A stretch of DNA of 63,818 nt, the filler included, from Kipferlia bialata (Eukaryota), in NCBI GenBank assembly GCA_003568945.1. It is 6 parts of 6 records of this genome, joined end to end, with 100 filler letters (N's around TTAATTAATTAA, not from the genome) between each part and the next. Parts side by side here need not be neighbours in the genome. Positions count along the whole stretch, not along the records: positions 35,009 to 46,561 come from BDIP01001226.1; 5 more parts are not named here. One strand, 5' to 3'. The notes beneath the pieces are model-generated. The model was not told the origin of the DNA, did not search any database, and saw only the letters and a program-made list of their open reading frames with translations. Shown here piece after piece: positions 29,185 to 58,372 of this stretch. The stretch's first letter is position 1. Every line of letters begins with the position of its first letter. Position numbers and translations under genes: made by a program.

Positions 29185-29216
<32 letters not shown>

Positions 29217-31598: not shown

Positions 31599-31650
<52 letters not shown>

Positions 31651-32219
31651 ATATATCCTTCTCTTCTCACTCCAGGCTGGCGTCTGGACTATGTCCTCTC
31701 TCTCTCTCTATATATATGCCTCTCTGTTATATTCCTCTTCTGACTCTAGGCTGGCGTCTTGACTCTGTCCTCTCTCTCTCTCTATATATATGCCTCTCTG
31801 TTAGTATTCTATCTCTGACTCTAGGCTGGCGTCTGGACTATGTCCTCTCTCTCTCTCTATGTTTGTATCCTCTCTGTTTGTATTCAATCTCTCACCCCAG
31901 GCTGGCGTCTTGACTATGTCCTTGTCGACTCCAACCTACTCGGCAAGGTCAAGGACTCTGAGATATTCGACGACCATAGGTATGTATTGATACTATTACA
32001 AATACTATTAATACGCATACATTCCATCTCATACTGTTATACATGGTCAAGGACTCTGAGATATTCGACGACCATAGGTGGGAGACCTTTGATGGCATTC
32101 TACAGTAGTTCTCTCACACACAAATATCAATACTTGCACCATATACATGTATGTATACATACTAACCCCCCAGGGACTGGAGTGACCATGTGCCTGTCAG
32201 GCTCACACTCACAGAGTGA
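28103..32219 (+). CDS. APEX1: AP endonuclease 1 / exodeoxyribonuclease III (EEP family), complete
   Basis: Basic N-terminus MAGAKKATGTKK, then ALNVNGIR, PDVFFMGETK, GYAG, HDTEGR, AYVPNAG, GDMNVCH, DSFRHLYP, FSWFS, GWRLDYVLV and SDHVPV-TGA (32217-32219). This is the full ExoIII/APE1 motif set. Confidence 0.95.
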
Positions 32220-34908: not shown

Positions 34909-35008
34909 NNNNNNNNNNNNNNNNNNNNNNNNNNNNNNNNNNNNNNNNNNNNTTAATTAATTAANNNNNNNNNNNNNNNNNNNNNNNNNNNNNNNNNNNN
35001 NNNNNNNN
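34909..35008. other. Artificial scaffold linker
   Basis: N44-TTAATTAATTAA-N44. Confidence 0.97.
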
Positions 35009-35851: not shown

Positions 35852-37225
35852 TCATGCCATCATGTCCCGCACTGTGACAATCTCTGTGTGGGTGGCACCC
35901 CCAGACAGCACCAGGTCCAGCTTGATGCGCAGGGCCTTGGTCCCAGCCAGCCTGATCTGCTGGGTGATGGGGCCCTCGTTCATGCCGGTGGTCTTGCCAG
36001 AAACAGGCTGCAGCTGCAGGGTGGCGTTGGGGGGCTTGGAGAAGGCCAGAGACACCGACACCTTGGGCAGCACGGTGGTGACGCGGAAGGTGGCCACGAT
36101 GGCGTCCCCCTTCATGTTGGCTGTCTTGCCGATTGTGACGCCGTGCCCCTTGTAGACCACAGTCTCGGAGGGCACAGCAGGGGACGACAGCTCAGACATC
36201 AGGTCGCCCATGCCGCTGTTGCCACCGCTCCTGGCTGGGGAGGGGGTGGGTGCTGGGGACAGACCCATCAGCACATCCATCAGGTCCTGCTCGGCAGGGG
36301 GTGCCTGGGCTGCTCCGGAGTCCCCGTCCATGCCCAGGTCCACAAGGTCTCCTCCCATGTCCTGCCCAGCCTCGACCTCCTCCTCCTCCTCCTCCTCGTT
36401 GCCTGCCCTGCCTGCCTCAGTCTCCCTCAGGGGAGGGGCGTCGATGGGCTCCAAAAGGGCCATAGCCAGTGCCCCGGGGGCACACAGCACAGCACTGTAC
36501 TCCACCACCCTCTTCTGGGTCTCCACGGCCAGGCTGTTGCGGAGGGGACCGTACATGGCGCCGATGCTCTGCTTGGTCTCGGGTATCTTGGCAGCTATCT
36601 TGCCCAGGGCAGTCACCACCAGGTCCCTGCACCCTGGGGTGTCCAGGTGGGTGGAGATCACAGACACAAGCTCCTCAGACGTCACGTGGGGCTCCCCGGC
36701 CAGACAGGACTCGGGGTACTCTCCCAGCACAAACACAGCCGTGGTAATGAGCTCCTTGCTGCACTGACCACCCTGTAGGGACAGGAAGAGCTGCTTGCAG
36801 GCGTGTTGCCTAAGGACTGGCTGCCTCTGGAGGAGGGAGGCGGTGTTGGCGATGATGTCGTGGCCCACAGACTGCAGGGCGGCGGCGTCTGTCTGCAGCA
36901 TCCTCAGCAGGATGTCAAAGTGCCACTTGGGGGAGGGGGCGTAGTGCTCGGCAATGAAGGCAACGGAGGTGATGAGCTCCGGCCTCAGCTCGTCGACTGT
37001 CTCGTCCAGGGTCTGCAGCAGATCGGCCACCAGGGCCTTGGCAGATGATACATCGGCCAGGAGGACGAGGAGGGCCAGGGCACGCCTACGCACAGAGAGA
37101 GAGGTCTCGCTCAGACAGAGCAGGACTGTCCTGCGGTGCCTCTGGAGGGAGGCCACGTTACCAGATGCCCTGACCAGCTTGGCCAGGTGGGACAGAGCAG
37201 CATAGCGCACAGTGGCATCCTTGTT
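35852..37225 (-). CDS. AP1G1: AP-1 complex gamma-adaptin, C-terminal ~457 aa in one exon (trunk end, hinge, GAE ear)
   Basis: NKDATVRYAAL...LQRHRRTVLLCL...SVRRRALALL...AEHYAPSPKWHFD...VFVLGEY matches the gamma-adaptin trunk. The acidic hinge has DLMD-type motifs and the ear has LQLQPVSG...ITQ...LRIKL. Acceptor ctcacttcag. Confidence 0.9.
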   Translation of the reverse strand, partial: NKDATVRYAALSHLAKLVRASGNVASLQRHRRTVLLCLSETSLSVRRRALALLVLLADVSSAKALVADLLQTLDETVDELRPELITSVAFIAEHYAPSPKWHFDILLRMLQTDAAALQSVGHDIIANTASLLQRQPVLRQHACKQLFLSLQGGQCSKELITTAVFVLGEYPESCLAGEPHVTSEELVSVISTHLDTPGCRDLVVTALGKIAAKIPETKQSIGAMYGPLRNSLAVETQKRVVEYSAVLCAPGALAMALLEPIDAPPLRETEAGRAGNEEEEEEEVEAGQDMGGDLVDLGMDGDSGAAQAPPAEQDLMDVLMGLSPAPTPSPARSGGNSGMGDLMSELSSPAVPSETVVYKGHGVTIGKTANMKGDAIVATFRVTTVLPKVSVSLAFSKPPNATLQLQPVSGKTTGMNEGPITQQIRLAGTKALRIKLDLVLSGGATHTEIVTVRDMMA

Positions 37226-37280
37226 CTGAAGTGAGAGGGGGTGGGGGGGGGGGGGGGGGGGGGCTTTCTTTTTTTTGCCA

Positions 37281-39072
37281 CTGACAGAGACGTGGCTGGA
37301 GAGAGGGCAGCTAGGTATGGTCTTATGGAAGGACATGTAATTGTACGCTTGATTTATGAGTCTATTTCACCAAGTGAGCAGTCTAACTATCTGCAGTGTT
37401 GTGTAGTGTTGTAAACCTTGTATATACCCTGACCCGCCACTATGTCTGTGGCAGATACGATGTGCACTTATATGTATATCTTCTGTATATATACAATAAC
37501 ATACATACGTATACCATATATACTTATAGCTAACTCAGGATGTCTGTGGCAGATACCATGTTTGCCCTGATAGCCGTGCCTGCCCTGCTGAGACTGGAAC
37601 ACGTGGCAGGGTATGTTATAATGTATAGTACATACATATATATACACACACATATATATAGTAGTAGTAGTGTGTATTCCGCAGTATATATACTGCCCTA
37701 CTGAGACTGGACGTGGCAGGGTATGATGGTGTATATATACTATATATGTATATATGTACTAATAGTGTACATTGCCAGGACTCCGTATTCATGGATTTTG
37801 GATTATCTATATGGTATTCATATTGTATTCATAGTGAACATATACTGTGCCTCACTCCGGCCGTGTCTCAGCCTCTCCCTAGACTATGAATGTATGGGTG
37901 TATATGATCATACATTGGTGTATATCAAAGAGATACACCTCTCACCCCAGCCGTGTGTCTGCCAAGACTCTATATACATGCGTGTATATATATTATATGG
38001 TATAAGTATATGGTATATAACTATGCCTCACCCCAGCCGTGTCTCCGCCTCTGCCAAGAAGACCTTCCAGCCAGCCAGGGTCTATGCATGCCTGGACTTC
38101 ATAGGTACAGGGGTATATATATATATATATATTGATGGGTACATTAGGTTATGTGTATATACATTTTATACATATATAGTTTGAATTTACATACAATATG
38201 AATATATAGAAATATGCAAATATATGTCTTTATTAATCTATGCATGTCTGGACTTCATAGGTATAGGGGTGTATAGACTATATACTATATATACTATATA
38301 GACTCTATAGACTCTATATACTATATAGACTATCTATTATTGTGTTGTCAATATCTCTCTATTGGTCTATGCATGCCTGTACTTCATAGGTACAGTATGT
38401 GTGTATATGAACACATTCATTATATGTATATATATATACCTGTGGATATATATATGTATGTATACATATATTCTTGTGAAAGTGTGTATATGGAGATGTA
38501 CATAATATATCTCCCTCACCTGTCATGTTCCCTGGCCTTCACTTGACACCGTCATCCATATATACCACTATGTCCACTATATATCTGTCCAGTATACATG
38601 TATATTTATACCCTCACCTGCCAGGCTCTCTGGCTCATCATAGGTACATTAGGTTATGTATGTTTATATATTCATTTTCATAATATGTATCTCCCTCACC
38701 TGTCAGGCTCCCTGGCCCCTCTGTCCGGACAGATAGAGGCACTGTTCAGAAGGGCAGGTATGCAGATATGTGCAGATATATACATATATATATATATATA
38801 TATAGTATAGTGCTATTATTATTAAATGTATTTTGATACCCTCTGTCCGGACAGATAGAGGCACTGTTCAGAAGACCAGGTGGGTATATATATGTGTGTG
38901 TGTGTATATGTAGGTCGATGCCTTGTTCATCAAGAGACAGGTATAGTTGGACATGGATATGTATATATATGTGTGTGTGAGGCGGATATTCATCTCTCTT
39001 TCTCTATATATGTGTGTCATACACCTCACCTTAGCCCGTGACCGTTCTCTCTCGTCTGAGGCCGATGGGCTT

Positions 39073-39116
<44 letters not shown>

Positions 39117-39868
39117 CATTGGCGTGTATATGTATACTCTTATACCTCACCTTAGCCCGTGACCGTTCCCTCTCGTCTGAGGCCGATGGGCTAGACCTGT
39201 GTCAGGAGCTGTACTCGAGGACAGTGGCCTTAATTAGGTAGAGATGATGTATATGTATATACTATAAGTCATCTATATATGTATATGTATATATATATCT
39301 TGTAGGAGCTGTACTCGAGGACAGNNNNNNNATATGTATATGTATATATATATCTTGTAGGAGCTGTACTCGAGGACAGTGGCACTGATCAGGTATTATA
39401 CTGTACTAACCATACCTATTACAAGTGCATATATATATATACATCTATATATATACTATCTATATCTACCTATATATATACCATATATACTGTACTCGAG
39501 GACAGTGGCACTGATAAGGTATGGATGATGTACTACATACTATGTACACTGTATACTATGTACTACATACTATGTACACTGTATACTATGTTATACATAC
39601 TATGTACTATCTATATCTACCTATATATATACCATATGTACTGTACTCGAGGACAGTGGCACTCATCAGGTATGCTACACTCACTTTATATACTGAATCT
39701 CTCTCTATTTTCATCCTATGTACTGTAGACTCTTGGATAGTTGCCCTGATCTGGTATATACATGACATCATACTGTTATACTGTGTGTATATGCTATAGG
39801 GAATGCACTCTAGGATACGTCTAACCCCTCCCAATGGACAGGCTCATAGCGTCTCTCTGCATATGTGT

Positions 39869-39912
<44 letters not shown>

Positions 39913-40017
39913 ACCCCCTAGGGACAGGACGTCTGGGGCACTCCAACTGGCCAAGCAGGTTAGGGAAGATGGATATATGTGTATATATATATTGTATATA
40001 TTATATATATTGGGTGG

Positions 40018-40049
<32 letters not shown>

Positions 40050-43000
40050 GTAAGTACTGTAAACATCAAACTGCCCAAGCAGGTGGGGGAGGGTGTATCC
40101 AGATATTCAGACCAGCACCATGTCTACTATGTATATGTAGTATGTATTTGTAGTATATATGTATATGTATATACATAGTGGCAGTGTGACTCCAACTGGC
40201 CAAGCAGGTTAGGGAAGATGTACATTTACAACACAGATATACATTGATACACAATTTATGACAGAGAGCATTTGACCCTTTCCTTTACCTGTGCAGAAGA
40301 CTAGCATGTTATGTGTATATAGGGTATATATATTGGAAGAATGCTAATATCAGACCATCACCAGTGCCAAGCCCACCAATATATGTATATATATAGAGAA
40401 AGAGAGAGAGAGTATATGTATGTATGGAGTGTATATGTGAAGTGAAAATATGGGAAGTTGCTGATCCAGTGCCAAGCCCACCAATATATTATATATATAT
40501 ATATACATGTATATATATGGATGCGACATACCCTTTCTCTATGCAGGCCAAGACCTTGTAGTAGTAGTACATTGGATATATTCGTAATAACCCTTATGCC
40601 AGACCAGCACCAGTGCCAAGCCCACCAACGTGTGTGGTGTCCTGCCTGCATGTTTCCAGGGACTGAGGAGACTGTCCATTCTGTCACAGTACAGGTACAA
40701 TGGTATATATGTACTATATACACATTACACTATATACTATAAATACTACATATAGTGTGTGTTCACATGTATACTGTATAGTGTCTGATATTGATACTGT
40801 CCATTCTGTCACAGTACAGGTACAGTGTATATATATATAGTACATCCACTGTATATCCATACTAACACCCTAGGTCCATGCTGCAGTCCATGGACGGCCT
40901 GTCCTTCTCATCTCTCTCTCTCTATATATATATGTGTGTGTGTATATCTATATAGATATGTGTCCTCACCCCCAGGTCCATGCTGCAGTCCATGGACGGC
41001 CTGTCCTTCTCCTCTGTGATAGATGACAGCATAGCCATACTCCTCAGGCAGATAGAGAAGGGGGTGCAGGTATATATATAGTGTATATATATATTTATAT
41101 ATATACATGTATGTATATATATATGGTATGTATATTTAGTGTGATAGATGACAGCATAGCCATACTCCTCAGACAGATAGAGAAGGGGGTGCAGGTATAT
41201 ATAGTATATATATAATATATATAGTATATATATATATATGATATGTATATATATATATATGACAGCATAGCCACACTCCTTGGACAGATAGAGAAGGGGG
41301 TGCAGGTGTGGAGGGGGTATAGTCTGTATGTATACGGTATACTTCTTCATGTATATGCATACCCACCCCAGGACCACAGGGACATGGATATTTATATTGA
41401 CTCCAGATATGTATGTGTGAGTGCAGTATACAGTTGTCTATACTACTGGATGTCTATCTCTATTGTGAGAGTGTGTATGAATATGTGTGTTTTGTGTATA
41501 TACTCCTATGTACATACCCACCCCAGGACCACAAGGACCCTGTGGCCAGAGGGGTGTTCCAGCTCAACAACATCAGCTACATCAGGTGGGGGTATATATG
41601 TATAGTGCATAGATTGAGTATGGATGGATAGGTATTACATACATAGTATTATTCTTTGCCTATATGAATGTGTATTGTATGACATATGTTATTATACCCC
41701 AACCCACCAGGACCACGCTCCAAGAGCATCCATACCAACATCATATTTCATGTATTTGTGCGTCTTTGTGTGCATATGTATTGACACATACCCTGACCCT
41801 CCAGGACCACCCTCCATGAGCACTCCTCCCTGTCACTCGGGTCAGACAGCCTCAGGTACCAGTCCTTCTTACACTAGACTCCTGTACACTTACATTCTCG
41901 TCGTTGGATCCATATAAGTGTATGATACTATACTATAGTGTAGTGACAGTCCCTGGGGTCAGACAGCCTCAGGTACACACTGTGTATAGAGTGTATAGAG
42001 TACATTTTTGTATATATATAGTATGTATACTGCCTCTTGGGTCAGACAGTCTCGAGGTACGGATAATGGTGTATTTGTTTTATGTAGAAGATGTGTTTGA
42101 AAGGAGGTTATACACATATGTGACCCCAGGCGTGCCCTGGATGCGAGGCTGGACTCCACCCTTGACACATACATAGACCAGTGCTGGGCAGGGGCAGTCA
42201 ACTACCTGAGTGTGGAGAAGGTGTGTATACACATATAGAAATATATATATGACATGTACAGATGGTATAAAGTAATATACATATAGATTATGGATAGTAC
42301 TATTAGAGTATATCTACTTGAGTGTGGAGAAGGTGGGTGGGGTGTGTATTGTAGCACTATGTATGTATACCCCCATGCCTCTGAACGTCTGTGTCTCTCT
42401 CTTTGCACACATACAAGTCCTCCCCCCCAGATCCACGCTGTGCTTGAGAGGACTGACCCCTCCCTGGGTGGCACAGTGGGGTCACCATCACCAGACATGG
42501 AGGACAGGTATGGGTGTATGTGTATCCATGTATATATGGATAGAGATGTATACTCTAAATACATGGTGGGGTCATCCCCAGACATGGAGGACAGGTATAT
42601 ACATCTATGGATATACATGTGTGTGTATCTGTCTGTCCATGTATATCTGTTGATTCATATGTATACGCTGGTGGGATCACCATCCCCAGACATGGAGGAC
42701 AGGTGTGGAGGCATATATGGATATGGTTGTATGTATATATACATTAACTTCATGCCCCCACCCCAGTGAGACTGAGCCCCTGGTATTGATGTATATATGT
42801 ATGGGTAGATATACTATATTTTGTATATATGTATGGGTATCCCTCCCACCCCAGTGAGACTGAGCCCCTGGGTGCTGTCACCAGAGAGTCATCCCTGGTA
42901 GATGACACAGACAACCAGGTGTGGATATAGATGTATGTATATTAGAGAGAGAAGGGAGAGAGAGAGAGAGAGAGAGAGAGTGTGTGTGTGTCATCCCTGG

Positions 43001-45621
43001 TGGATGACACGGACAACCAGGTGTGGATGGATGTGTATATATATATATATATATATAGTGTGTGTGTATAGAGAGGGGGAGAGAGAGAGAGAGAGTCATC
43101 CCTGGTGGATGACACGGATAACCAGGTATAGACGTGTTTAGACATATATATATATATTTGAAAGAGAGAGAGAGAGAGAGGGAGAGAGAGAGTCATCCCT
43201 AGTGGATGACACGGACAACCAGGTGTGGATATGTGTATAAATGTGTATGTATTATTGCATGTGTATTGTCAGAGGATGTCTTCACCCCCCACCCCAGACT
43301 CACAACGCAGAGTTCAGTGTCTCTCCCATTCTCTCTCTCTCTATATCTATCTCTATATATACACCCCACCCCACCCCCACCCCAGAGTGCCATCACCGAG
43401 TCCAGCCTCATGAGCAATGTGACAGCAATGAGCATGGCAACAGGTGTGGATACACACATATATATCTTTGAATTATAATGAATCAACCTGTATACGTGTA
43501 TATCTCTGTTCCATATTGGTGTATACCCCCCCCCCTCACCCCCAGCCAACATGTCCAAGGGCATATTTGTATATGTACATATGTATCTTCATGTGTGTAT
43601 ACCCCCCCCTTCCCCCAGCCAACATGTCCAAGGGCATATATGTATATGTGCACATATGTATATAGTGTATACGCGTGTGTATAATATCCACACCCCCACC
43701 CCCCAGCCAACATGTCCAAGGGTGAGGCCAGGAGGCACCTCAAGGCACACGCACTCACAAAGAAGGTACCGATACATGTTAGTATATATCTATATATATG
43801 TGTGTGTGTCTACACTCAAGGCACACGCACTCACAAAGAAGGTATAGACCCAACCTGTTCATGTGTACCTATACTGGTACTATATACTGTATATATACTG
43901 ATGCTGATACTCACCCCCAGGTCATCAAGACTGCCATGAGAGGGTTCCAGAGAGAGATTGCCCTGCTCAGCGAGAAGCACAAGGTGGGGGATGGTGTCTG
44001 TATACATATACATACATATATACACTCATATATACTAATACTGATACTGATATTGAGTGAGAAGCACAAGGTGAGGGATACCAGTCTCTCCCTTCCGTCT
44101 GTCTATATATATATCCCTCTAGCTCTCCGCTCACCCCCAGCTGTACCGCATCTCATTCCCCAGACACTGTGTATATGTATATATGTACATATATATATAT
44201 ATATGCATGTATCTGTATATGTATCTGCCTCAGTTCTATTCATATGCTCACCCCCAGCTGTACCGCATCTCATTCCCCAGACACTACATATGTGTATACT
44301 ATGTATGTACATATATATATATAGATATATATGCATGTATCTCTATGTATATCTGCCTCACCCCCAGCTGTACCGCATCTCATCCCCCAGACACTATGAA
44401 TATGTATATACTATATATATATATATATATATAGTTATATCTACATATGCTCACCCCCAGCTGTACCGCATCTCCTTCCTCAGACACTGTGTATATGTAT
44501 ATACTATATATGTATATATATATATGTATATATAGTATTATACTCACCCCCAGCTGTACCGCATCTCCTTCCCCAGACTATATATGTGTGTACTATATAT
44601 GTATATATATATATATATATATATGCATGTATCTGTATGTGTCTCTGCCTCACCCCCAGCTGTACCGCATCCCATTCCCCAGACACTACATATGTGTATT
44701 GATACATGTATATATATATATATATATATAGATATATCCCCCCACCCCTCACCCCCAGCTGTACCGCATCTCCTTCCCCCAGCTGAGTGTCAGGGTGGCA
44801 CAGACAGTGGCAGGGCATGTGGTGCAGAGGTGAAGACAATATATGTATATATATGCATATATATATTGTATATGCATGTATACTATACATACTATACTAT
44901 GTCAGAGTGGCACAGACAGTGGCAGGGCTCGTGGTGCAGAGGTATATACAGTGTATGTCTATATGTGCATTTGAGGTTAGAGAGAGAGAGAGAGAGTGTG
45001 TGTGTGTGTGTGGCTGGGTACGTAGTACAGAGGTATGTGGATGGAGTGTGTATACTCTTGACATGACTGCATACTCTTACCCCCAGATACGAACAGTACC
45101 GTCTGGTCTGTGAGAGTCACACCCTCTGTCAGATGCCATTCAGAAGGTATAGAGGGGATATATATATGTACATATATATATATATATATATACAGTATAC
45201 AGTATATACTATTGTCACACCCTGTGCCAGATGCCATTCAGAAGGTGTGGCATATGTATATAAAGTAGTCAGCGACTGTGTGTATTTGGCTGTAGTTATG
45301 TGGAAATATGGGATAGTGTTGTGCTCTGTGCAAGTGACACTCATATATTTCTGCATCGACTACGTATGACACGTGTAGCACCCTGGATATGTACTATATG
45401 CAATGAGTGTTTTGAATATGTACCCATATTGCATGCAAAATACTCTCACCCTAGGTATGACACGTGTGGCACCATGGATGTCCTGAATACTAATATATAT
45501 GTATATATATTTATTAGTATGTGATGTGTGTATGGTATGATGATATGTGTGCACTGACCCCAGGTATGACACGTGTGGCACCATGGATGTGCTGGAGAAT
45601 GAGATCAAGAGGATGTTCTAG
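37281..45621 (+). CDS. EXOC7: Exocyst subunit Exo70-like (5'-truncated, ~19 exons)
   Basis: DPVARGVFQLNNISYIR (Exo70 FLxNNxxYI), YIDQCWAGAVNYL, VIKTAMRGFQREIALLSEKHK|LYRISFPQLSVRVAQTVAGHVVQR|YEQY, and C-terminal MDVLENEIKRMF-TAG follow the order of Exo70 C-terminal motifs. Confidence 0.7.
44130..44775 (+). repeat. Tandem array of 7 copies of acceptor + exon start (CTCACCCCCAG|CTGTACCGCAT...), ~100 bp period
   Basis: Copies at ~44130, 44247, 44357, 44450, 44543, 44649 and 44748. Only the last continues into the full exon and donor. Confidence 0.95.
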
Positions 45622-46561: not shown

Positions 46562-46661
46562 NNNNNNNNNNNNNNNNNNNNNNNNNNNNNNNNNNNNNNN
46601 NNNNNTTAATTAATTAANNNNNNNNNNNNNNNNNNNNNNNNNNNNNNNNNNNNNNNNNNNN
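46562..46661. other. Artificial scaffold linker
   Basis: N44-TTAATTAATTAA-N44. Confidence 0.97.
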
Positions 46662-49465
46662 TCTTCTTGGGAGTCTTCTTGGGAGTCTTCTTGGGAGTCT
46701 TCTTGGGAGTCTTCTTCTTGTGAGTCTTCTTCCTGTCCTTCTTCTTGGGGGTCCTCATCTTCTTATCCTCCTTGTTCTGCGTGGGCTTCTCTGTCACCGC
46801 AAATGGCACAGACTGGAGTGAAGGGCCAACTCTGTCCACCAGAGCACTCTCATACGCCTCCTTGTGCTCGGACACGAACATTAGGATGACGTCAACGTTC
46901 TGGGCTACTCTGGGGACAACGTCGTCCACGATGTCCAGCTCCATGTTCTCTCCCACAGGGATATACTCCTGAACAAACAGCATCCTAGCAGTAGATGGCA
47001 GGACTGGGTTTTCACCCCCATGCACCTCTTGGGGGGTCATCTCCGAGAAGGCAACCTTGAAGGCACTAAAGAGAGAACTACGCAGACCGGCCTTTGCTTC
47101 CAGGAGATATACCAGCTTGGGCGTGCTGTCGTAGATGAATCCATCGTGTGAGGCATTCCGGCGAGATGGGTAGAGATTGGCCAGGGTATAGCCAGGGACC
47201 AGTACGGGGTTGACAGCCCGCAGCTTCGCCCCCACCACAGCGATATGAAGCAGTGGCAAGGGAAGCCGTTTCACCGACACGTCCCGGTACCATGCTTCAG
47301 CCCCATAGATCCCTGCAATCTCTTCCATGAGGTTGCCAACGGTGCCAGTGATGTGTTGGCACCTATCACCGTTGACGTAGTCGACCAGGTCCAGCACCAC
47401 CTTTTGTGCTGAGCCTAGTCTCTTGTGTAGCATTTGGCTCTCGCATACAGCATGGCACAGAAGGAATCAACTTCGTAAAGCAGGCCCTTAACCATCTCTG
47501 GAACAGCAGCGAAAGTACCAGCAGTGACAAGGGCATTAGACACTCTCAGTATCATCTCCTCGCCCTTGGCAGACGCGCCAATCTGACCAAGGACGTATAG
47601 AGCAGCCACAGACACCATGGGTACACATACGGGGTAGTCGATGCGTAGAGGCGGCAGTGGAGAGGCTTGAGTGACGCTCTTCGGTCCCAGCTGTGTCCCA
47701 AGTGGATCTGTGCATGGAGGTGTCCCAAAGCCATGGTGGACAAGAGCACTGAATACGTCATATGACAGTACACTGCGGCTGCCAAGGGATCCACCTAGCA
47801 GAGGAACAATGGCAGCCAAGACACTCTCGGCGCCCATTGATGCCCCCCTAGACCCCACTCGGGATTTCACACACTTAAGGACCGCCTTGAGGCCCTTGTA
47901 CATTGTGGACTGGTCACAGAAGGATGAAAGTATGATGGGGGATCCCGTGAGCAGAGCAACGAGTCTGTCCAGTCCTGCCTTGTCTCTAGGGAGCCCTGTC
48001 ATTTGGCCAGCAAGACTGTCAAGCACAGCCCGTACCGTGGCCTCATTGACATATGTGTCCACAAAAAGGACCTGGTGGCAATGGGGCGCTGCGTATGATG
48101 GTCCCCAAGTGGAGCTGCGAGAACCACGCGAGTATGTCGTGATGGTGGCTGTGGTGTCATTGAGAATGGCGGCTGAGTGGTACCCCTTACATGCCTCTCG
48201 CAGCCATAGGGCAACACTGACAGATGCCTCTCTTGTGACCATGAAGCTGGCAAGTGCAAGGTCCGTGTTGGGACCAAACATGCCATGCCAGCTGCTTAGG
48301 GCCTCGTCGAGAATGACGAACACCGGCTTTACCCCATGCTTCTTCAATGCCTCTAGAAGGGCTGCCCTGACCCGGTCACAATATCCCTTCAGTGCGGACA
48401 CGGGCAGGAAACGGCCGCCAGGCATGCACTCCTCCATGTGCTCCATGAACGTTACATCGAAGACCTTGTTCATCGTCTTCTCTCCTGTCACAATGTCAAG
48501 GATGGAGTGGAGAGTAGCGTACTGTACACTCTGGTACTCTGGCTGCTCCTGCACATGTGAGTGGAACCCACTCTCATCGTCACCCTCCATGACCTTGAGT
48601 GCATTGACATCAAGGCCTTCAAAGTAGGACTTCAAAGGATACCGAATATTCTTGGTACCCTGGCACAGAGGGAGGAAGACAACATGCCCATACTGCTCAA
48701 GGAACAGCATCCCAGTGGTCTTCCCACAACCCGAGTGTCCAACAACTTCAATGAGAGCCACATCCTCACCCCCTGCAGCCTCGACAATGCGCCTGGTGAT
48801 GCTGATGTTCTGGATGTCCATGGATCCATTTCTGCCGCGTTGGCGCCTCATGAACTCGCAAGCATAGCGAGAGAGCATGGTGGATGTTAGCCGCTCTGGA
48901 CTAGTCTCACTGTCGGAGGACATATCCGTCAGCACTGGTCCATTCCTTTCCTGGCGATCAGACACCACTCAAACCATCCTCACACACGTCGTAGAGAGAA
49001 GCAATATCGAGGAGGACAATATACTATCAACCGGTGTAGAGATTAACGGTATCATTGAATATGAAACAGTACAATGCCATCATTGAGCAACACGCCTACC
49101 CGATATACTTGGTCTATATGTATTTGCATAACAGACCCACCCACGGGAGGAGGAGTGGAGTAGGTTGAGAGAGAGTCAGACTCAGATACAACAGCAGTAA
49201 AGTCTACATATTTACGGGTTCGAGGTACCTGAAGGGACCGCACAACGGCCTCGTGCAGCTTGATCTTCCACAAAGTCTTCCACTTGGTATTCTGAAAGGA
49301 GCACTTCCTCCTGTCGGGGTCTCCCAAGAGGTACACAAGATCTTTCACATTCGCCACACCTTCCCTCTTTCTCAGAAACTTGCAAACCTTTGCACATTCC
49401 TTAGCATCCTTAAAACCGGCCTTGGTGACATAGTCCTCGAGGGTCATATCGATGGGGGGATCCAT
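46662..49465 (-). pseudogene. SAM-like header + P-loop NTPase + PD-(D/E)xK nuclease + TPKK-repeat tail (Crinkler/RHS-like architecture), with a frameshift at ~47415-47433
   Basis: Exon 1 is 49465-49109; the intron 49108-48951 (gtatat...ctgatcgccag) joins in phase. Walker A GHSGCGKT, Walker B VFVILDEA. After the frame change: HDGFIYDSTPKLVYLLEAKAG and KKTPKKTPKKTPKK, running off the scaffold. Confidence 0.65.
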
Positions 49466-49821
49466 CACCCTTGCCTTGTTAGGTAGTGTAGGCGGATATC
49501 AGTGGCAGACAGGTGTATATGTCGCACGTGAATGGGGTCCCGGCTAGAGTGAGTGACAGTAGGATGAGAGGGAGGGGTGGAGGTGGATAGAGAGGCAGAG
49601 TGATTCACAACTGAGGGGCAAGAGTGTGAAAGAATGTATACAGGGGAGAGAGGATGGTGAGGCTGTACACCAGAGACATTAAGAGAAGAATCATTGACAA
49701 TAGATAGACACCACACACCTTGACGAGGCCTGAGTGAAACAGGGGTCCCAGCAGGTGGGTCCAGCCTGGAGTGAGAGAAGCCATGGAAGAGGGAGGAGAC
49801 TCTTTGTAGTACTGGGGAGAA

Positions 49822-49856
<35 letters not shown>

Positions 49857-50133
49857 GTTTGGGGGGGGGGGGGGGGGGGGGGGGGCATATGACCATTAAG
49901 GGACTTCCGGCCTTGTTCGGCAGATAGACAGAGAACACATCTACTTGACAGTACATACTTTGGCTATATAGAGCTTGCTAGTCTATTCCTTATTGTTACA
50001 TGGTGTTTCTGTCCCAGCTACACGAGTCCCCAATGGTGAGTGTCTATAGGGGGAGTCATGGGTAGGGAGAGAGTCAGTCTAGGGGGGGTAAGCATATATA
50101 TAGAGAGAGTGTACTCGCTCTCTCTATACATAT

Positions 50134-50256
50134 CTATGCATACATCTGCCCAACTGGGCCAGGTGCATTGACAGCTGTGACCTGTCCAGCTAATACGGCC
50201 ACAAGACGGTCGTAGTCACTGGGAGTCAGTAAGGCAGACACTATATCAGAGAGAGA

Positions 50257-50287
<31 letters not shown>

Positions 50288-50460
50288 GTCGCATGCGACG
50301 GGGATTAGTCAAGTCAGAGAGCAGGAGACATGGGGATGATATGATAGATATACTCGAGTACACCAATGTGCCGGAATACCCAGGAGAAGGGAGCTGCGTG
50401 ATGTGGTATAAGCACAGCATCACATGATGATTATAACGTAGTGAAGCCCCCCCCCCCCCA

Positions 50461-50499
<39 letters not shown>

Positions 50500-51005
50500 C
50501 CTCACCTAGGATTGGCTGTGATCTCAATGGTCGACCTCCCCTTGATGACCGTGACGTGTATCTCCCTCTTCTCGTCATCCAGTCTCACGCACTGCATCTG
50601 TGCTGACCCCTGCCAGGGTGTGACGTGTAAGAAGGGCGTCTTGCAGCCAGAGAAGGCAATGATGAAGCGGGAGGGTGTGATGGCAATGGAGCCCTGGTAC
50701 CTGCTCCTCTTGTACTTGCAAAGAGACCTGGCCACCCACTTGCAGTCAAAGGAGTGGTCGAGGAACAGGGCACCCCCATCCTGGGCCACCTGGAATAAGG
50801 CAAAATACAGTAGTTATGGTACATGAGATAGGGGATAGGAGAGGTGGTAGACAGTCGAGCACATGTATCCGCGAGAGAGATATGGACAATGCCGTTGCAG
50901 TTTGGAAGGATCAGATTGAAAGAACACAAGTATAAAAACAATACCCATCCATGTACGTACCAGTTGGTTGACGTATATGTTCCCGGAAGATGGCACAGCT
51001 CCCAT
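50134..51005 (-). CDS. Small (~140 aa) protein with putative N-myristoylation signal and PH/GRAM-like beta-rich domain
   Basis: MGAVPSSGNIYVNQL|VAQDGGALFLDHSFDCKWVARSLCKYKRSRYQGSIAITPSRFIIAF...IEITANPS|DYDRLVAVLAGQ...QMYA-TAG. Three exons with canonical junctions. Confidence 0.7.
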
Positions 51006-51199
51006 TACTGACACCTTGAAGAGAAGCGATGTTGCGTCGATCACTGACAACTCAAAAATAGCATCTGCACCCTTACGCTCAGAGTTAAAAATAGATTTCA
51101 CACTAATACGGGTCTAAATATAGTATGTATAGTTAACGCGTAAGTAGAGGCCTTGGAGAGAGTATATATAGTGCCTGTACCAGTAATTATTATATATAT

Positions 51200-52736
51200 C
51201 TATATCATCCCGCCGTTGTCTGTCGCCTCGCGTAGACACTCCTGCGCGTACACATCACCATTCGCCGCGTCATAGAAGTACCCTCCCAGGTGCTGTTCCC
51301 TGCATAGTGCCCATTCCAGTGAGGTGTCAGGATACATCCACCCGGGTGGCCACATGACTGTACCTGTGTGGGGGCCTGCTATCATGTTGCCGCAGCCATC
51401 GTCTATGCCACTCCCTCCACTGACTGTGTTGAAGAGTCCCCTTGATGAGAACTCACCAGAGATGGTGTCCAGAGCATAGACCTCGTTGAAGTCACCGAAG
51501 GTGAGGAGGAGACGTCCACACCGCCTCACGGCATTCGCACACTTGAGGTACCTGGTAATCTCGTGCGGGGGCCTGGATACCCAACCATGTCTGAAACTGA
51601 ACTCGACGAACTTTGGTACAGCCCCGGAAATTATAGCAGACACGTGATCTCCAAAGGGTACTGTCCCGTCTGAACCTCCATACTGTGCATTCCCGTAACT
51701 AACACAGGCTGGTGGCATGTCAGGATATCTCTGCCACACTAGAGAGTCGGGGTCAAAGGCCCAGATGTCAGAATACCCCAGGCAGTACGTTGGATGCTGG
51801 GAGTCACTTCCACTGTCGAGATCAGAATCTGACTGGGAAGAGGGTATCTCAGGCCATCCGCCAAAGAGGAGCAGCTGGTCATTGAGAGCAACACATTGTG
51901 GGTGGCCTCTATCGGAGGGACATTCTCTCTCTCTCTCTTGGCCCCCCGCAGACACAACCCGCCACTCGAGAGATCCCAAGTCAAGCATGTATAGTACACC
52001 CTTGAACGCTTTGGCGATCGCTATAAGGTAGCCCCCAGCAGCGACGTAGCTTACATAGCCAGTTAGTTCGGTTAAGACAGGGTGGAGCTCTGCCCTCTCC
52101 TCCTCTTCAAGAGCAGAGTCCGGGTCTCTCCTGCACAGAAAGACTGCCTCTCTCACATGTATCTCCACCAGTCGGTTGGGGTCAAGCAGGATGATAGGCC
52201 TTCTCCTATATCCAAAGCCAGTTCTCTTTGCAAGAGCCTCGTCATCTAGGGCAGCTAGGGCAGGCTCCTCTCTAGTGGGTATGGGATGGGGGAGGGCCCA
52301 TTCTGACTCATCCCCAATCACCATGAACTCCTCCTCTGGGGGAGGGGGTCTGGGGGTGAGTAAGAGGGGAGGGACTGTAGGTAGAGGTGGGGGTCTGGGG
52401 TTTAGACAGTAATATGAACACACCGGATATGAAGAGAGAGAGAAAGATGAGGTGGGGTCTGAGGTTTGGAGAGTGACACTTAGCAACTTAGAGCTGCCGC
52501 CAGTAGCTGCGACATGCCACAAAGAGGAAGATTATAGAATGAAGTGTATGCGAACACTACACATCATATTGTGGCAGTACAATGTTGCCAGGTTAGAGAC
52601 ATAGTAGCACGTAAGGTTTATAAAGTCTAAAGATGTATGGTATATATACTAACTGCAGAGTGTTACTGTCTCTGACATGACCCCACCTCTGAGCCTGTGG
52701 CATCTCTACAGACACCTCACTGTAGCTGTACTCATC
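51200..52736 (-). CDS. Kelch/galactose-oxidase-type beta-propeller protein (5' end uncertain)
   Basis: Long last exon with LYMLDLGSLEWRVV, LLLFGGW and DIWAFDPDSLVWQRYPDMP. Acceptor ctcacccccag at ~52351-52361; probable upstream exon DEYSYSEVSVEMPQAQR. Confidence 0.75.
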
Positions 52737-52848
52737 CTGACATATAAGACCAATAAGACAATACGCAACAGTGCAATAAAAAGATATATATATATGAGCG
52801 AAAGGAGAGACACCGCTGAGCAGTAAAATGAATCCAAGGCGGCGGCGG

Positions 52849-52895
<47 letters not shown>

Positions 52896-53788
52896 ATAAG
52901 GCGCAATGTGAATCCCATACCTGCGCTGACTCCTGTCTGTCTCAATGTCACTAGGCAGGGGTGGCAGTCTGGCATCCCTACTATGATCCCTCTCCCTCTC
53001 TCTCTCTCTCTCACTGTCAGAGTCAGAGAAGGAGCCCTCAGAGCCATCGGTCCCCGCATACCTACAGTCAGCACCCTGTAACTAGTATACACTCCACCCA
53101 GTATTATAGTATCAGTATATATATACCTCCTGAGTGTATATGGGTCCGGTCTGATGAAACAGTCGAGGGAGGACTGCACAAAGGACACCTCCTCGTCACT
53201 CTCCTCACTATGCCGCGGGGCCATCTCTCACAGAGTACCCCTCACGCACTACGGGGCCACAAGGGTGTAACGTTGTCACTAGGGGTGATGACTTACAGGA
53301 GACCACTGCTTACAGGACAAGGAATCTTCCCCAAACCCTTTTTCCACGAACAAACCCGTTCTTCAAACGGCAGGGTAGTGCTCCCCTTATCTTGGTGCAT
53401 CAGCAGAGGCTAAGCATTCATATACCTGACACAGAAACCATACTAGTGGTGACCATTTAGTATATTAAGTGCTCATCAGCCTCAAGTATAGAGAGAGCTA
53501 TTATTAATACCACCAATATCTGCGGTTGCAACAATGCATGGCAGCAACACTCAGCTGCTGACACGTTACAGGTGGGGGCACACCTGATCGAGGAGTTGCC
53601 TGTTCAGTGGTGCTCGATATACCGGAATGGTGACGGCGGGAGCGATGGCGCACTCGGCGACGTGATACCCTACGCTCTGCAGCTGCTCTCTTCCTATCCA
53701 GTCTCCTCTGAGCATAATACACAAGACGGTGCTCCAGTTTCAAACTCATCATGTGATAGAATTTTCTGTATGTAAATGGAAGTCAGAC

Positions 53789-53828
<40 letters not shown>

Positions 53829-54414
53829 TACATCAGATGTTGGCCAAAGACTACTCACTTCCTCTTCAACCCGTCGTACGTCAACCAAAGAGAGCTATCC
53901 CGAGGGATGGAGTCCTCTGGATCAGGATACTTGCACAAAAACCTGTGGGGAGGCAAGAGAGAATACAAACCAACAGAGTTGCCTTGCCATAGGGTAGAGG
54001 CAAATCAAGACGCAAGACCAATTCTATACCTGTCAAGCTCCTCCGTTGCCAGATTAGCAGCCAAAACGAAGCTTTCAGACACCTCAAGTATATTCCTTTC
54101 CTGTGGCATCAAGGAATTCAATAGAGGCAAAGAGCATAGGTGTTGTGTTTGGAGTGTCCTCTGCACCCTTATGTGTTTTTCCTCATTTCCCTTTGACAGT
54201 CAAAGTTTGACTCAAGACATGATCATGAATCTCTACAGTGGCCCACACGATGTCATGTCAACCGATACCACTCCATGCCCCTCTCGTCTCTCTCTCCAGT
54301 TGACATTGAGTAGTGGCCCTTCCTGGCTTTCCAGCTTTGGACCCAGGAAACTGACATCCGAATCACTCATATATCACTGAGAGAGAGAGAGAGAGAGAGT
54401 AGAGTGAGTGAGAG

Positions 54415-57400
54415 ATGACTAGCACTACCATCTCGTACAGGACGGTGGATGTGGGGTATCAGAGTGACAAGAGACCCGCCATGGTGTATGTAGGTACCCT
54501 CACAGATGGTGGCCAGATACCCACAGCCCTAGGGCCAGGTGATGTGTACCAGGTGCTGGTGGTGGGATGGAACACTGCCAACCCCAGCCACAGCTGCATG
54601 CTCTTCACCCTGGACCCTGCGTTAGGCACTATTGCATCCAAGGTGATACAGTGCCCCCTCCCTGCCAACAATGGGTATGCCCCTGCAGCCCGTATAGGTG
54701 ACACAGTCTATGTGTTTGGAGGCAAGACCAGTGGCGACTCCCTCTTCACCTACTCCATCGAGCATGAGACGTGGACTCAGGTGGAGAAGGGTGGTGTCTG
54801 GCCAGGGGCTAGGTACTGCCACTCCTCCTTCACCCTCGGTGGCAAGCTGTACATAGCAGGGGGTAGGGGGGCCAGGGACTGCTGGTGCTATGACCCTGAG
54901 ACTGGTGTGTGGACAAGGCAGGCTGACATTCCTCTAAAGTGTGGGTCATCCGCTACGACAGTGGTAGGTGAGGGTGCCAAATGATACTAAGAATATATTT
55001 GAACCCATATATACCTATATTGCATTGTCTCATCCCAGGTGATGTGGTTCACATGATTGGGACTGCCTGGAGCGACAAGCAGCCCCACTTCAGACTGCAC
55101 CTCACCTTCACTCTCTCCCGTGGGTGGCACAGAGAGGCGGACCTTCCCTCCGAGTACCACAACACTGGGTGTGTGAGTGTGGGGAGTGACATCTACCTCC
55201 TTGGTGGGCCTTCCTCCCCAAGGGGTGTCCGTGTGTACAACACCCACACCAAGCAGTGGAGGCACGGTAGAGACCTTCCAGTGCCTTCCAAGTCGGGAAG
55301 AGCCTGTCTGATCAGCCCCAGAGTACTGCTGCTGTGCAGTGAGCAGATGGTGGTGGGAGAGATACCGGAGTCACATCAGGAGAGGAGAGAGAGAGAGAGG
55401 AGGGAGAGAGAGTCACTGGTCAGCGCCCTTGTGTCTCTGGGGGTACCTGCAGAGGACCTGCCTCACTCGCCCACCCCCATCACTCTAGCTACCTGCCTCC
55501 CGCTCCTGGGAGGTGAGATCACCCGGCTCAAGGAGACAGTGAGTGAGATCCAGAGGCAGGACACAGCAGATACCCGCACCTTCTCCTGCTTCTCCCCTGA
55601 CTCCCTACCCTTGGTGCAGGCACTCATAGAGCAGGCACGGGGTATTGACATGGCGGTGCTGAGGTATGGGCTCTCTCTCGCCATATATCTCTCACCTAGG
55701 GAACCTACTATGTGTATATAGTACCCTCTAGTAGAAATAGTAACAGTATATTCCACTTTGTCATACAGAGACCCTATCTGTCTCCCACCCCAAGACTCAC
55801 CTGTTCCTCTTCCTCTCTCTCTCTCTCTATTTGTCCCCCTAAACTCAGGACCCACCTGTCCCGCCTCTCCACCTACCTACCCCTAGCCCGTAGCCTCTCT
55901 CTCCTAGTGTCGAGGGTACAACAGGTCATAACAGAGCACCCGATGGAGGAGGTATACTCTATATATATATGTAATATATACCGTGTATATTATATAGAGA
56001 TTTATCGTTGTCTCTGTCGGTAGACGTGTAACAGTTCATGTCGAGAGGTGGGACATGTATGATTGTATATTCATATATACGTTAGAGTGGGGGGTTGGAC
56101 ATGCATTAGTCTATCTCTCTCCCTGAGATTGCATGTGTATGAGGACTCCTAGCACTATCCCCCCAACAATACCGCCTATCACCCCGCCGCTAACGACCCT
56201 AACCCTAGCTGGTGACTGAGGACGGTTCTGCCCTCTCTCTCTCTCTTCCTCCCCCCCCCCCCTCACCCCCTAGCTACCTACTGAGGACTGCTCTGCCCTA
56301 CTCACCACCCTGACCTCTGAGCACACCGCCCTCCACACTGCATACCAGGGGGTACGGGCACTAGACTTCGACCCAGCAGAGAGTGTGGCATATCTAAAGG
56401 GAGTGGCAGATCTGCTGGAGACCATAGACAAGACACCCATCATCCCACTGCCTTCTGACTACTCCTCTCTGCCTCTGAATGGAAAGAGACAGTACTTCCA
56501 GGTAAATACTTCAACATTACTCCAAGTGTGACTATGTTACAGATAGTACCATCTCCCATATCATCCACTTCATCAACGAATTTTGAGTGTATCTTAGCAT
56601 CTCACTCCAGGCCAAGCAGTTCAATGGAGCTGTGGAGAGTCTCTGTGCAGCGGCAGGCGAGGTATAACTAGGAGACCTGGTAGCTGTTTGATATTTTCAT
56701 TGAAATCGCTGATTCTCTCTACCTATTGAGCCTCAGATCATCGAGTGCCAAACCTTTATTGAGCAGGGCATGTGTATTTGCTGTATAGAGTACACACTCT
56801 ATGTGCATACTAATGTATATACTCATCCCAGATCATCGAGTGCCAGGCCACAGTCGACCAGCACATGTCTGGGCTGGCTGAGGTGGAGACACCAGATCCA
56901 GACGTGTGTGACAGGGTGATGGCAGAGGCCAAGGCACTGCTGCAGGTATGTGTGTATATATATAGTATTATAGTGATTCACTCGTATTGCTATATACCTA
57001 CAGACAAGGGTGACAGGGTGATGGCATAAGCCACGGAAATAGTGAAGGTACATAGCAAGCTACTCTATCCATCTATGAGTATATATTTTTAGGCTATACT
57101 CCATGTGAGCTCCCGGGGTGTGTAAGAGGACACTGCTGTTAATTTACTATCCACCTGTCATAACCTTTACTACGCTGTATACCTAATCCTTGCTCAACCC
57201 AGATCCTTTCATACCTGGCTCCCAGACGAACTAGGGCACTGTCTCTGGTCGCTGAACTGGAGGGGGTGCAGAAGGTGTGTATTGTATACTGAACACTATA
57301 TATATGTGTGTGTATACACTCGGATGCCAGTTATTGACTAACATCATACTACCACCATCTCTGAATATCTTCTACTTGTCTACTGACGCTATAGGTCAAC

Positions 57401-57715
57401 CCCGGTGCTATTGATGTTGCTCAGAGGGACGTTGCGGATCTAGAGTGGCACCTAACGAGACCTAGACTCCCAGAGAAGGAGAGACAGACCCTCACTAGTG
57501 ATCTAGTTGAGTGGAGAGAGATGCTTAACACCCTGCAAAGGGCTCAGTCAGAGAGAGAGCAGCTCATAGAGCAGTTGCAGGGGTACGTCATCTTCCCTGA
57601 GGTGGCTGCTGCCCTGGGTGTAGAGAGACAGCCCTTAGAAGAGGCAGTGTCAGCACTGGACAAGTGCAACGGGGTGGTGGGTGTGATGGTCAAGGGGGAG
57701 ATAGTCAGAGCCTAA
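54415..57715 (+). CDS. Kelch-repeat protein with C-terminal helical/coiled-coil region
   Basis: ATG at 54415; kelch repeats ARIGDTVYVFGG, WPGARYCHSSFTLGGKLYIAGG, CWCYDPETGVW and VGSDIYLLGG. Downstream spliced helical exons end GVMVKGEIVRA-TAA. Confidence 0.85.
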
Positions 57716-58309: not shown

Positions 58310-58372
58310 ATATGTACACATACATATGGTAGGGATAGTAACAGTAGTACACATATACTATGTACATGGATA

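What the first reader, a model, noticed from the sequence alone, without database searches (positions are those of the whole stretch)
44130..44830. Six perfect decoy 3' splice sites precede the real Exo70 exon
Seven identical CTCACCCCCAG branch-point/acceptor signals are each followed by the same exon start. The first six dead-end in TA repeats after ~20 nt with no adjacent donor. First-AG or intron-definition splicing would choose a decoy, so the organism must use strong exon definition, use recursive or stepwise splicing, tolerate heavy NMD loss, or delete the array at DNA level. Similar acceptor arrays occur at 13320-13605, 31665-31925 (GWRLDYV x4), 20050-20365 and 43535-43725.
Basis: partly seen in the sequence, partly recalled or inferred. 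Interest (0 to 1): 0.75.

Follow-up and report, generated by a model that had tools for sequence, protein, structure and literature searches.

The report
Introns stacked with duplicated exon ends
In the free-living protist Kipferlia, about half of the introns examined hold spare copies of the neighbouring exon ends with intact splice signals, which the spliced RNA skips in the gene checked; the copies differ mostly by silent codon changes, so they are likely pieces of old working alleles left by recombination and likely tolerated because splice sites are paired across the exon.

Summary
The array is real: seven copies of acceptor plus exon start in the Exo70 gene. A spliced RNA contig joins the first donor to the seventh acceptor, and uses the outermost sites in 10 of 10 introns covered, past 24 intact decoys. 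It is one case of a window-wide pattern: 79 of 146 introns hold one-sided boundary copies (71 acceptor-side, 93 donor-side; null 0.5), spaced about 100 nt, usually leaving an intact ordinary-size intron nested inside. Decoy sites score like true sites. The surprise: decoys differ from the true exon, and from each other, mostly at silent positions (pN/pS 0.14; neutral simulation about 0.45). Plain duplication and decay cannot give that. Most likely the copies were taken from diverged working alleles by recombination, and survive because sites are paired across short exons. Recursive splicing and DNA deletion are not supported. The six focal decoys alone look neutral. Other isolates and raw RNA reads would decide.

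The parts
37539..45621 (+). Exo70 gene, 18 exons in this contig (5' part likely missing)
   Evidence: Model equals P0005; Pfam PF03081 71 bits; spliced RNA contig over 10 introns
43921..43983 (+). Upstream true exon; true donor GT at 43984
   Evidence: RNA contig positions 323-385; open frame
44056..44076 (+). Decoy donor: copy of the last 15 nt of the upstream exon plus GT at 44071
   Evidence: 14 of 15 nt match, score 8.7 against 7.9; inside DNA contig record 3
44071..44140 (+). Intact nested 70-nt intron between decoy donor and decoy acceptor 1; not the unit removed in the RNA contig
44130..44161 (+). Decoy acceptor 1 plus 21 nt of exon start
   Evidence: DNA contigs records 3 and 4
44247..44278 (+). 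Decoy acceptor 2 plus 21 nt; 40 nt identical with copy 1
44357..44388 (+). Decoy acceptor 3 plus 21 nt; private Phe to Ser change
44450..44479 (+). Decoy acceptor 4 plus 19 nt; private Pro to Leu change; weak in-frame GT at +30
44543..44574 (+). Decoy acceptor 5 plus 21 nt identical to the true exon start
44649..44680 (+). Decoy acceptor 6 plus 21 nt; private Ser to Pro change
44748..44758 (+). True fused branch-point/acceptor, with a C-rich run upstream
   Evidence: RNA junction 43983|44759; score 16.5
44759..44829 (+). True 71-nt exon (LYRISFPQLSVRVAQTVAGHVVQ)
   Evidence: RNA contig positions 250-322, no other letters
43519..43722 (+). Acceptor array, two decoys plus true site 43707
   Evidence: RNA joint to the last copy
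42883..43232 (+). Donor array, true site 42919 plus three decoys with silent changes only
31661..31922 (+). Acceptor array, three decoys plus true site 31901
4883..5427 (-). Donor array, five decoys; the longer ones encode the same peptide with different codons
   Evidence: true site agrees with P0004
2194..2604 (-). Donor array, three decoys of about 50 nt, many silent changes and one amino-acid change
13319..13638 (-).
   Evidence: not in the curated intron set
20040..20365 (-).

Best explanation
The six extra acceptors are DNA tandem copies of the intron end plus exon start, skipped in the spliced RNA, and one case of a pattern in about half of the introns examined, in which such copies were likely taken from diverged working alleles by recombination and are likely ignored because splice sites are paired across the short exon. 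Step 1 (shown): units of about 100 nt that span one splice junction are repeated in tandem, which by geometry leaves truncated acceptor copies upstream and truncated donor copies downstream of the true site, and an intact intron nested inside. Step 2 (shown): across the window the copies diverged under protein constraint. Step 3 (inferred): repair or unequal exchange with a diverged homologue copies an exon end with its splice site and joins it out of register in the TA/CT-rich intron, sometimes through a few shared bases; later exchange multiplies and refreshes the copies; between exchanges they decay. The focal array came from one such junction and was then multiplied. Step 4 (outcome shown for one gene, mechanism inferred): the spliceosome pairs an acceptor with the nearest donor across a GC-rich exon of about 70 nt, so one-sided copies followed by TA repeats are not used. 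Step 5 (inferred): selection removes copies that add a whole exon or lie too near the true site.
For: RNA: junction 43983|44759 exact; outer sites in 10 of 10 introns (6 listed joints, 2 from contiguous contig positions, 2 from loose ends), past 11 intact acceptor and 13 intact donor decoys. Scale: 79 of 146 introns, 164 copies on the expected side, 3 on the wrong side, null 0.5; donor copies precede acceptor copies in 26 of 28 introns with both; inner intron median 91.5 nt (n 72) against 97 for 67 decoy-free introns; spacing median 102, quartiles 91-112, n 144. Site strength does not decide: 29 of 60 intact decoy acceptors and 45 of 87 decoy donors score at or above their true site. Using the nearest decoy would give exons of 137 nt or more (5th percentile, n 99) against a 95th percentile of 129 for 132 internal exons. 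Codon signature, 151 of 164 decoys, 1293 codons: mismatches 4.5/3.3/18.2% at codon positions 1/2/3; pS 0.257, pN 0.035; decoy against decoy 0.297 and 0.041; one decoy per intron side, 97 units, pN/pS 0.13-0.28; neutral-decoy simulation 0.44-0.47, lowest 0.29; with the detection rule included, position ratio at most 2.1 against 4.67 seen. Changes private to one decoy in 10 arrays of three or more: 26 silent, 10 not (12 and 4 without the most diverged copy). pN/pS falls with copy length (0.33 to 0.10-0.12) and array size (0.28 to 0.04) and rises towards the junction, as refreshing by exchange predicts. Three stops in 1293 codons fit decay after capture. Context: fornicates lack NHEJ and Rad51A and have two Dmc1 (PMC8516963, section 8); Dmc1 stabilises mismatched joints (PMC6719624 abstract).
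Against: No second allele was seen: no other isolate was found, and the laid runs come from one sample, so the diversity the model needs (silent divergence about 0.2) is assumed. The six focal decoys show no codon signature: three private amino-acid changes and one shared silent change. Acceptor-side copies show it less (pN/pS 0.28 against 0.09) and four small genes hardly or not at all (0.55-1.18). Intron parts of neighbouring units are mostly not recognisably alike (median z 0.5; 11% of 148 above 2), which fits very diverged alleles but also weakens any simple copy model. Shared bases with a dinucleotide repeat could be tested at only 24 of 139 junctions (mean 2.6 against 1.4, p 0.004). Only 2 of 7 informative site pairs show mosaicism. 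Cross-exon pairing cannot be told from a TA-content rule here; exons of 228-625 nt exist; U1-70K and U2AF35, the usual cross-exon partners (recalled), were not detected in this species (PMC6679479 supplement). RNA evidence is one contig of one gene, and contigs drop rare forms. My gene models assumed outer sites; the 40 of 40 junctions that agree with P0004 and P0001 are predictions too.
Confidence: 0.55

Rival explanations
1. The copies are still under selection as exchangeable exon ends: deletion or gene conversion between the direct repeats puts a decoy into the working gene often enough that harmful changes in decoys are purged.
For: Very low pN in arrays of three or more (0.014); decoy GT kept in 87 of 93 against 77 expected at the exon-part rate; private changes mostly silent.
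Against: RNA contig carries the true copy with no other letters in the 8 pieces listed; no DNA joint removes a decoy unit; 3 stops, and 11 of 71 AG lost; focal decoys carry private amino-acid changes. It also needs a very large population, so it overlaps with the best explanation.
Confidence: 0.18
2. Same origin, but site choice follows base composition as in dicot plants: TA-rich sequence marks intron, and sites buried in it are masked, with no cross-exon contact needed.
For: Introns 41% GC against exons 58%; TATA/ATAT density 0.10 in decoy introns, 0.031 in others, 0.001 in exons; long exons exist; U1-70K, U2AF35, SF1 and Prp40 not detected; AU-rich sequence defines plant introns (PMC2682935 passages).
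Against: Several arrays have CT or GA repeats, not TA, after the copy; TIA1 not detected while SR proteins were; the gap between true and extended exon sizes.
Confidence: 0.15
3. Plain slippage or sister-chromatid duplication followed by neutral decay.
For: Explains geometry and the link to microsatellites; fits the six focal copies, with one junction and related spacers.
Against: Predicts pN/pS about 0.45 against the true exon and 1 between decoys; seen 0.14 and 0.14. It would need working exons to change about five to seven times faster than decoys, and even then not explain silent changes private to several decoys of one array.
Confidence: 0.04
4. Decoys are used often and the products are destroyed by NMD.
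For: Use of any focal decoy gives an early stop (5 of 6) or a frameshift (1 of 6); contigs hide rare forms.
Against: 17 of 17 Exo70 introns hold decoys: a coin-flip choice would leave about 1 in 100,000 correct mRNAs (arithmetic); only the outer-site contig was laid.
Confidence: 0.04
5. Recursive or stepwise splicing consumes the decoys.
For: Intact nested introns and site scores equal to true sites; the inner intron could be cut first as a side step.
Against: No GT after the focal AG; six acceptors but one decoy donor; exact final junction; AG kept no better than exon-derived bases (60 of 71 against 60.6); gives no reason for codon bias.
Confidence: 0.03
6. The arrays are assembly artefacts or are deleted from somatic DNA.
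For: Short-read data; copies 3-6 were not covered by a listed DNA contig; the DNA run may be the source of the window.
Against: A 1592-nt and a 653-nt DNA contig piece run through many decoys with no other letters at depth 350-440; 40-nt contig at depth 845 fits copies 1 and 2; copies differ from each other and share old junctions.
Confidence: 0.02

Closest known systems
Exon definition with the cross-exon proximity rule (Carranza et al. 2022, PMC9225289; abstract and passages seen)
   Same: Among competing sites of like strength, the pair closest across the exon is used, giving the shorter exon.
   Different: There the rule holds for flanking introns over about 250 nt, and shorter introns pair across the intron. 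Here 30 of 79 decoy introns are 250 nt or less, three of them RNA-checked, an intact inner intron of about 90 nt is passed over, and the organism has a reduced spliceosome.
Tandem duplication across an intron-exon boundary (potato RdRp gene, Ma et al. 2016, PMC4974935; abstract seen)
   Same: Same geometry: intron end plus exon start duplicated in tandem.
   Different: In potato it is one case, and the upstream copy gave a new donor and a new intron. Here it affects half the introns examined, both sides, up to six copies; the extra sites stay unused and carry a silent-change signature.
Composition-defined introns of dicot plants (review PMC2682935; passages seen)
   Same: AT-rich introns, GC-rich exons; composition could mask buried sites.
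   Different: Plant signal is U/AU-rich; here alternating TA, CT and GA repeats; not tested.
Fused branch-point/3' splice site introns of Giardia, Spironucleus and Trichomonas (PMC6679479; passages and one supplement seen)
   Same: Branch-point-like CT(C/G/A)AC a few bases before the AG.
   Different: Those species have very few introns with long conserved donors; here donors are weak on the intron side and strong on the exon side (xAG in 116 of 146).
Recursive splicing at AG|GT ratchet points; mutually exclusive exons; ciliate pointer-guided DNA deletion (all recalled, no call)
   Same: Several usable-looking sites or direct repeats inside one intron; mutually exclusive exons also diverge by silent changes.
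   Different: No regenerated GT; copies are one-sided, not whole exons (164 against 3 wrong-side); arrays are present in DNA.

Membership tests
Exon-defined splicing | Competing sites resolved to the pair nearest across the exon | tested here: met
   10 of 10 RNA-covered introns, 24 intact decoys passed over; one contig, one gene
Exon-defined splicing | Choice not explained by site strength | tested here: met
   29 of 60 and 45 of 87 decoys score at or above the true site; in the focal array the true acceptor does score highest
Exon-defined splicing | Loss of the downstream donor blocks use of the upstream acceptor (exon skipping) | not testable with these tools
   Needs a reporter or mutants
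Exon-defined splicing | Cross-exon bridging factors (SR proteins, U1-70K, U2AF35; roles recalled) | tested here: inconclusive
   Literature only: SR proteins and U2AF65 found, U1-70K and U2AF35 not detected in a draft proteome
Boundary-spanning tandem duplication | Truncated copy upstream of acceptors and downstream of donors | tested here: met
   164 expected-side copies, 3 wrong-side, null 0.5
Boundary-spanning tandem duplication | Unused copy decays neutrally from an identical start | tested here: not met
   pN/pS 0.14 against simulated 0.44-0.47; met only within the six focal copies
Intron gain by tandem duplication | The duplicate creates a new spliced intron | tested here: not met
   No extra intron or micro-exon in the RNA contig
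Recursive splicing | Acceptor AG directly followed by a donor GT | tested here: not met
   All seven focal AG are followed by CT
Recursive splicing | Lariats and intermediates at internal sites | not testable with these tools
   Only contigs were available
Mutually exclusive exons | Each copy has its own acceptor and donor and keeps frame | tested here: not met
   Copies are one-sided; acceptor copy before donor copy in only 2 of 28 introns; 30 of 99 nearest-decoy distances keep frame, as by chance
Programmed DNA elimination between direct repeats | Joined form present in DNA | tested here: not met
   No DNA joint removes a decoy unit; DNA contigs run through decoys; rare forms would be missed
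Capture from a diverged allele | Copies diverged under protein constraint on separate lineages | tested here: met
   Decoy-decoy pN/pS 0.14; private changes 26 silent, 10 not
Capture from a diverged allele | A working allele or paralogue matching a decoy exists | tested here: inconclusive
   No relative in metagenomes; one protein, one cluster member for the exon searched; whole genome not held
Exo70 (PF03081) | Pfam score above the curated cut-off | tested here: met
   71 bits against 24.1

The most novel reading that the evidence does not exclude
Kipferlia introns are stacks of exon ends from many diverged working alleles: a Dmc1-only, NHEJ-less repair system keeps copying exon ends between haplotypes, spare and working copies trade places by recombination, and a reduced spliceosome with no detected U1-70K, U2AF35, SF1 or Prp40 picks the right sites across the exon even in short introns. 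One genome would then hold a record of its species' past allelic diversity and tens of thousands of natural splice-site competition tests.
Probability: 0.35. Interest if true: 0.9.

Novelty: new variant of a known kind. Interest (0 to 1): 0.76.

Why it matters
Whether short-intron protists pair splice sites across introns or exons is open, and the usual rule puts the switch near 250 nt (PMC9225289). Here intact short introns sit nested inside longer ones and are passed over, in a species with 87 of 174 surveyed spliceosomal proteins (PMC6679479); public RNA reads could test this genome-wide. The silent-change signature in untranslated copies is unexpected and points to exchange between strongly diverged haplotypes in a lineage whose sexual life is little known (my knowledge). 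Sequence outside the inner introns makes up 16,056 of 33,351 intronic bases in the curated set, so the process accounts for about half of intron length here. It also warns annotators: my gene finder took decoys for micro-exons.

Tried and rejected
No whole genome held, so all counts are for this window. Reads could be laid only up to the end of the true exon, so the next junction rests on a loose end of the contig. DNA bins over copies 3-6 had no cover; a hole proves nothing. No listed run is on record as RNA; X2 is a guess, though its contig is spliced at GT..AG. Single exons of 21-31 aa gave no Pfam match. The adaptin fragment found no longer homologue at E 1e-20. Two metagenome scans for other alleles found none. 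Earlier findings of the scan: none. The spacing and rank figures had a donor-order bug; spacing was redone and ranks are not used. In-frame 30-nt micro-exons from copies 1 and 4 are absent from the RNA contig. Special conservation of the seven acceptors: 0 changes in 66 decoy positions is within chance at the rate seen in the copied exon bases (about 3 in 126; arithmetic). A stronger C-rich run as a general mark of the true acceptor: not so window-wide. Literature searches that found no description of this architecture: (listings only); the species' genome paper has no word starting 'duplicat'. Subscription journals were not searched.

Full report
Setting. The window is several contigs joined by N spacers. 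Two window proteins are 100% identical to entries named Kipferlia bialata, a free-living fornicate. The published genome has 124,912 introns (PMC5874029, passages). No whole genome was held, so all counts are for this window.

The observation. Seven copies of an 11-nt branch-point/acceptor plus the same 11 exon bases lie at 44130-44769; shuffles give none. The first six share 19-21 nt with the true exon and then run into a common junction and TA-rich spacers that are related to each other (pair scores 19.5-54 against 1.3 plus or minus 10.5 for other introns). An 18-exon model with first donor and last acceptor gives one open frame, equals public protein P0005 and passes the Pfam Exo70_C cut-off. 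There is also a decoy donor at 44071, which with decoy 1 bounds an intact 70-nt intron. Weak GT sites exist in the spacers, so 'no donor' means no donor of the usual xAG|GT type.

What the RNA does. One contig of run X2 (3044 nt, depth 98) is a spliced Exo70 transcript. Its positions 323-385 and 250-322 lie on 43919-43981 and 44757-44829 without a gap, that is the junction 43983|44759, with no other letters. Six more joints are listed, one more follows from contig positions, and two from loose ends; all 10 introns use the outermost sites and pass 11 intact acceptor and 13 intact donor decoys, also in introns of 155, 210 and 219 nt. This is one contig; rare forms would not show. Use of any focal decoy would give an early stop or a frameshift.

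What the DNA does. Run X1 has contig pieces of 1592 and 653 nt that run through many decoys, including the decoy donor and decoy 1, with no other letters at depth 350-440, and a 40-nt contig at depth 845, the exact length shared by copies 1 and 2. Copies 3-6 were not covered, and X1 may be the source of the window.

Scale. I predicted genes with a small finder trained on Exo70 and edited by hand: 17 predicted exons dropped as decoys or doubtful, 9 boundaries changed, 2 exons added, Exo70 taken. In the 146 introns left, 79 hold copies anchored at a boundary: 71 acceptor-side in 53 introns, 93 donor-side in 54; exon ends of other genes give 0.5; 3 copies lie on the wrong side, all among the repeated tail exons of one gene. 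In 26 of 28 introns with both kinds the donor copies come first, leaving an intact inner intron; inner introns have a median of 91.5 nt against 97 for decoy-free introns, and units are spaced 102 nt (quartiles 91-112). The load is uneven: 17 of 17 introns in Exo70, 3 of 24 in the gene at 58374-63550. The models assume outer sites; 40 of 40 junctions agree with P0004 and P0001, 23 of them with decoys, but those proteins are predictions as well.

Site choice. With leave-one-out matrices decoys score like true sites (medians 10.3 and 10.5; 9.4 and 9.3), so position, not strength, decides. In human data short introns pair across the intron and long ones across the exon, with the switch near 250 nt (PMC9225289, abstract and passages). 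Here 30 of 79 decoy introns are 250 nt or less. Use of the nearest decoy would make exons longer than nearly all true internal exons. This fits cross-exon pairing, but a rule based on base composition, as in dicots (PMC2682935, passages), fits nearly as well: decoy introns are richer in TA. A survey found SR proteins and U2AF65 but not U1-70K, U2AF35, SF1, Prp40 or TIA1 in this species (PMC6679479, passages and supplementary file 9 read whole); absence from a draft proteome is weak evidence.

The surprise. For 151 of 164 decoys (two genes without a clean frame left out), mismatches to the true exon are 62 of 1385, 46 of 1395 and 252 of 1382 at codon positions 1, 2 and 3. pS is 0.257 and pN 0.035; between decoys 0.297 and 0.041. 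One decoy per intron side (97 units) gives pN/pS 0.13-0.28. A neutral decoy beside a constrained exon gives 0.44-0.47, at least 0.29, also when the detection rule is included. In 10 arrays of three or more, changes private to one decoy are 26 silent and 10 not, against about three times more non-silent sites; without the most diverged copy 12 and 4. Arrays at 4883-5427 and 2194-2604 show the same peptide in several codon versions. pN/pS falls with copy length and array size and rises towards the junction; 3 stops in 1293 codons and lost AG or GT in 17 of 164 show decay as well. Against: the signature is weaker on the acceptor side, absent in some small genes, and absent among the six focal copies; intron parts of neighbouring units are mostly unalike; microhomology could be tested at 24 of 139 junctions only.

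Most likely mechanism. Repair or unequal exchange with a diverged homologue copies an exon end with its splice site and joins it out of register in the repeat-rich intron; later exchange multiplies and refreshes the units (inferred). Fornicates lack NHEJ and Rad51A and have two Dmc1 (PMC8516963, passages and section 8), and Dmc1 stabilises mismatched joints (PMC6719624, abstract); this is context, not proof. No second allele was found. The copies persist because the spliceosome uses the outer sites (shown for one gene), likely by pairing across the exon (inferred). I put the whole at 0.55; the duplication origin and outer-site use alone at about 0.95.

Known and new. The geometry is known from a single potato gene, where it made a new intron (PMC4974935, abstract); the cross-exon rule is known for long introns. 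My searches (listings) and passages of the genome paper and of PMC10711314 found no account of boundary copies in half of an organism's introns, nor of a silent-change signature in them; subscription journals were not searched. Earlier findings of this scan held nothing. Verdict: real, ordinary within this genome, unusual among genomes; new variant of a known kind; interest 0.76.

Noticed in passing
window 11579-11678, 23252-23351, 34909-35008, 46562-46661, 58210-58309: N44 plus a 12-nt spacer plus N44 join separate contigs of about 11.5 kb; genes are cut there, often at poly-C or poly-G runs.
   Followed up: partly
window 37220-37320: Likely mis-join at a poly-G run: an adaptin fragment on the minus strand (Pfam Adaptin_N positions 278-520) and Exo70 on the plus strand both lack their 5' parts; the Exo70 RNA contig (3044 nt) is far longer than the model, and a small further exon seems to lie near 37289-37316 (read by eye).
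   Followed up: partly
window 12417-12656: Three copies of a last exon end with its stop codon and a GA repeat: the duplication also happens where there is no splice site.
   Followed up: no
window 38625-38652: Chimeric pseudo-exon: acceptor and start of the next exon fused to the end and donor of the previous exon; called by the gene finder, not in P0005.
   Followed up: partly
window 17787-18864: p23-like co-chaperone (label recalled) whose Gly-Met-rich tail is built from whole duplicated exons kept in frame, beside one-sided decoys; the only wrong-side copies are here.
   Followed up: partly
window 43280-43330: Unused strong acceptor followed by sequence matching the next exon start at 15 of 24 bases (by eye): probably an old decoy below my threshold, so counts are lower bounds.
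   Followed up: no
window-wide: Exon ends are strongly fixed (xAG in 116 of 146, G in 136) while intron-side donor bases are loose; acceptors have a branch-point-like motif fused to a C run and AG.
   Followed up: partly
window 46662-63818: Genes here have far fewer decoys (3 of 24 introns in the last gene, 3 of 6 in the kelch gene) and little TA repeat; the load differs strongly between genes.
   Followed up: partly
window 47418-48923 (-): Intron-free 502-aa frame with a P-loop-like motif, only a weak AAA_22 match.
   Followed up: no
window 28103-32219 (+): Exonuclease III/AP-endonuclease-like gene (label recalled from the WRLDY motif) with decoys in 9 of 12 introns.
   Followed up: partly
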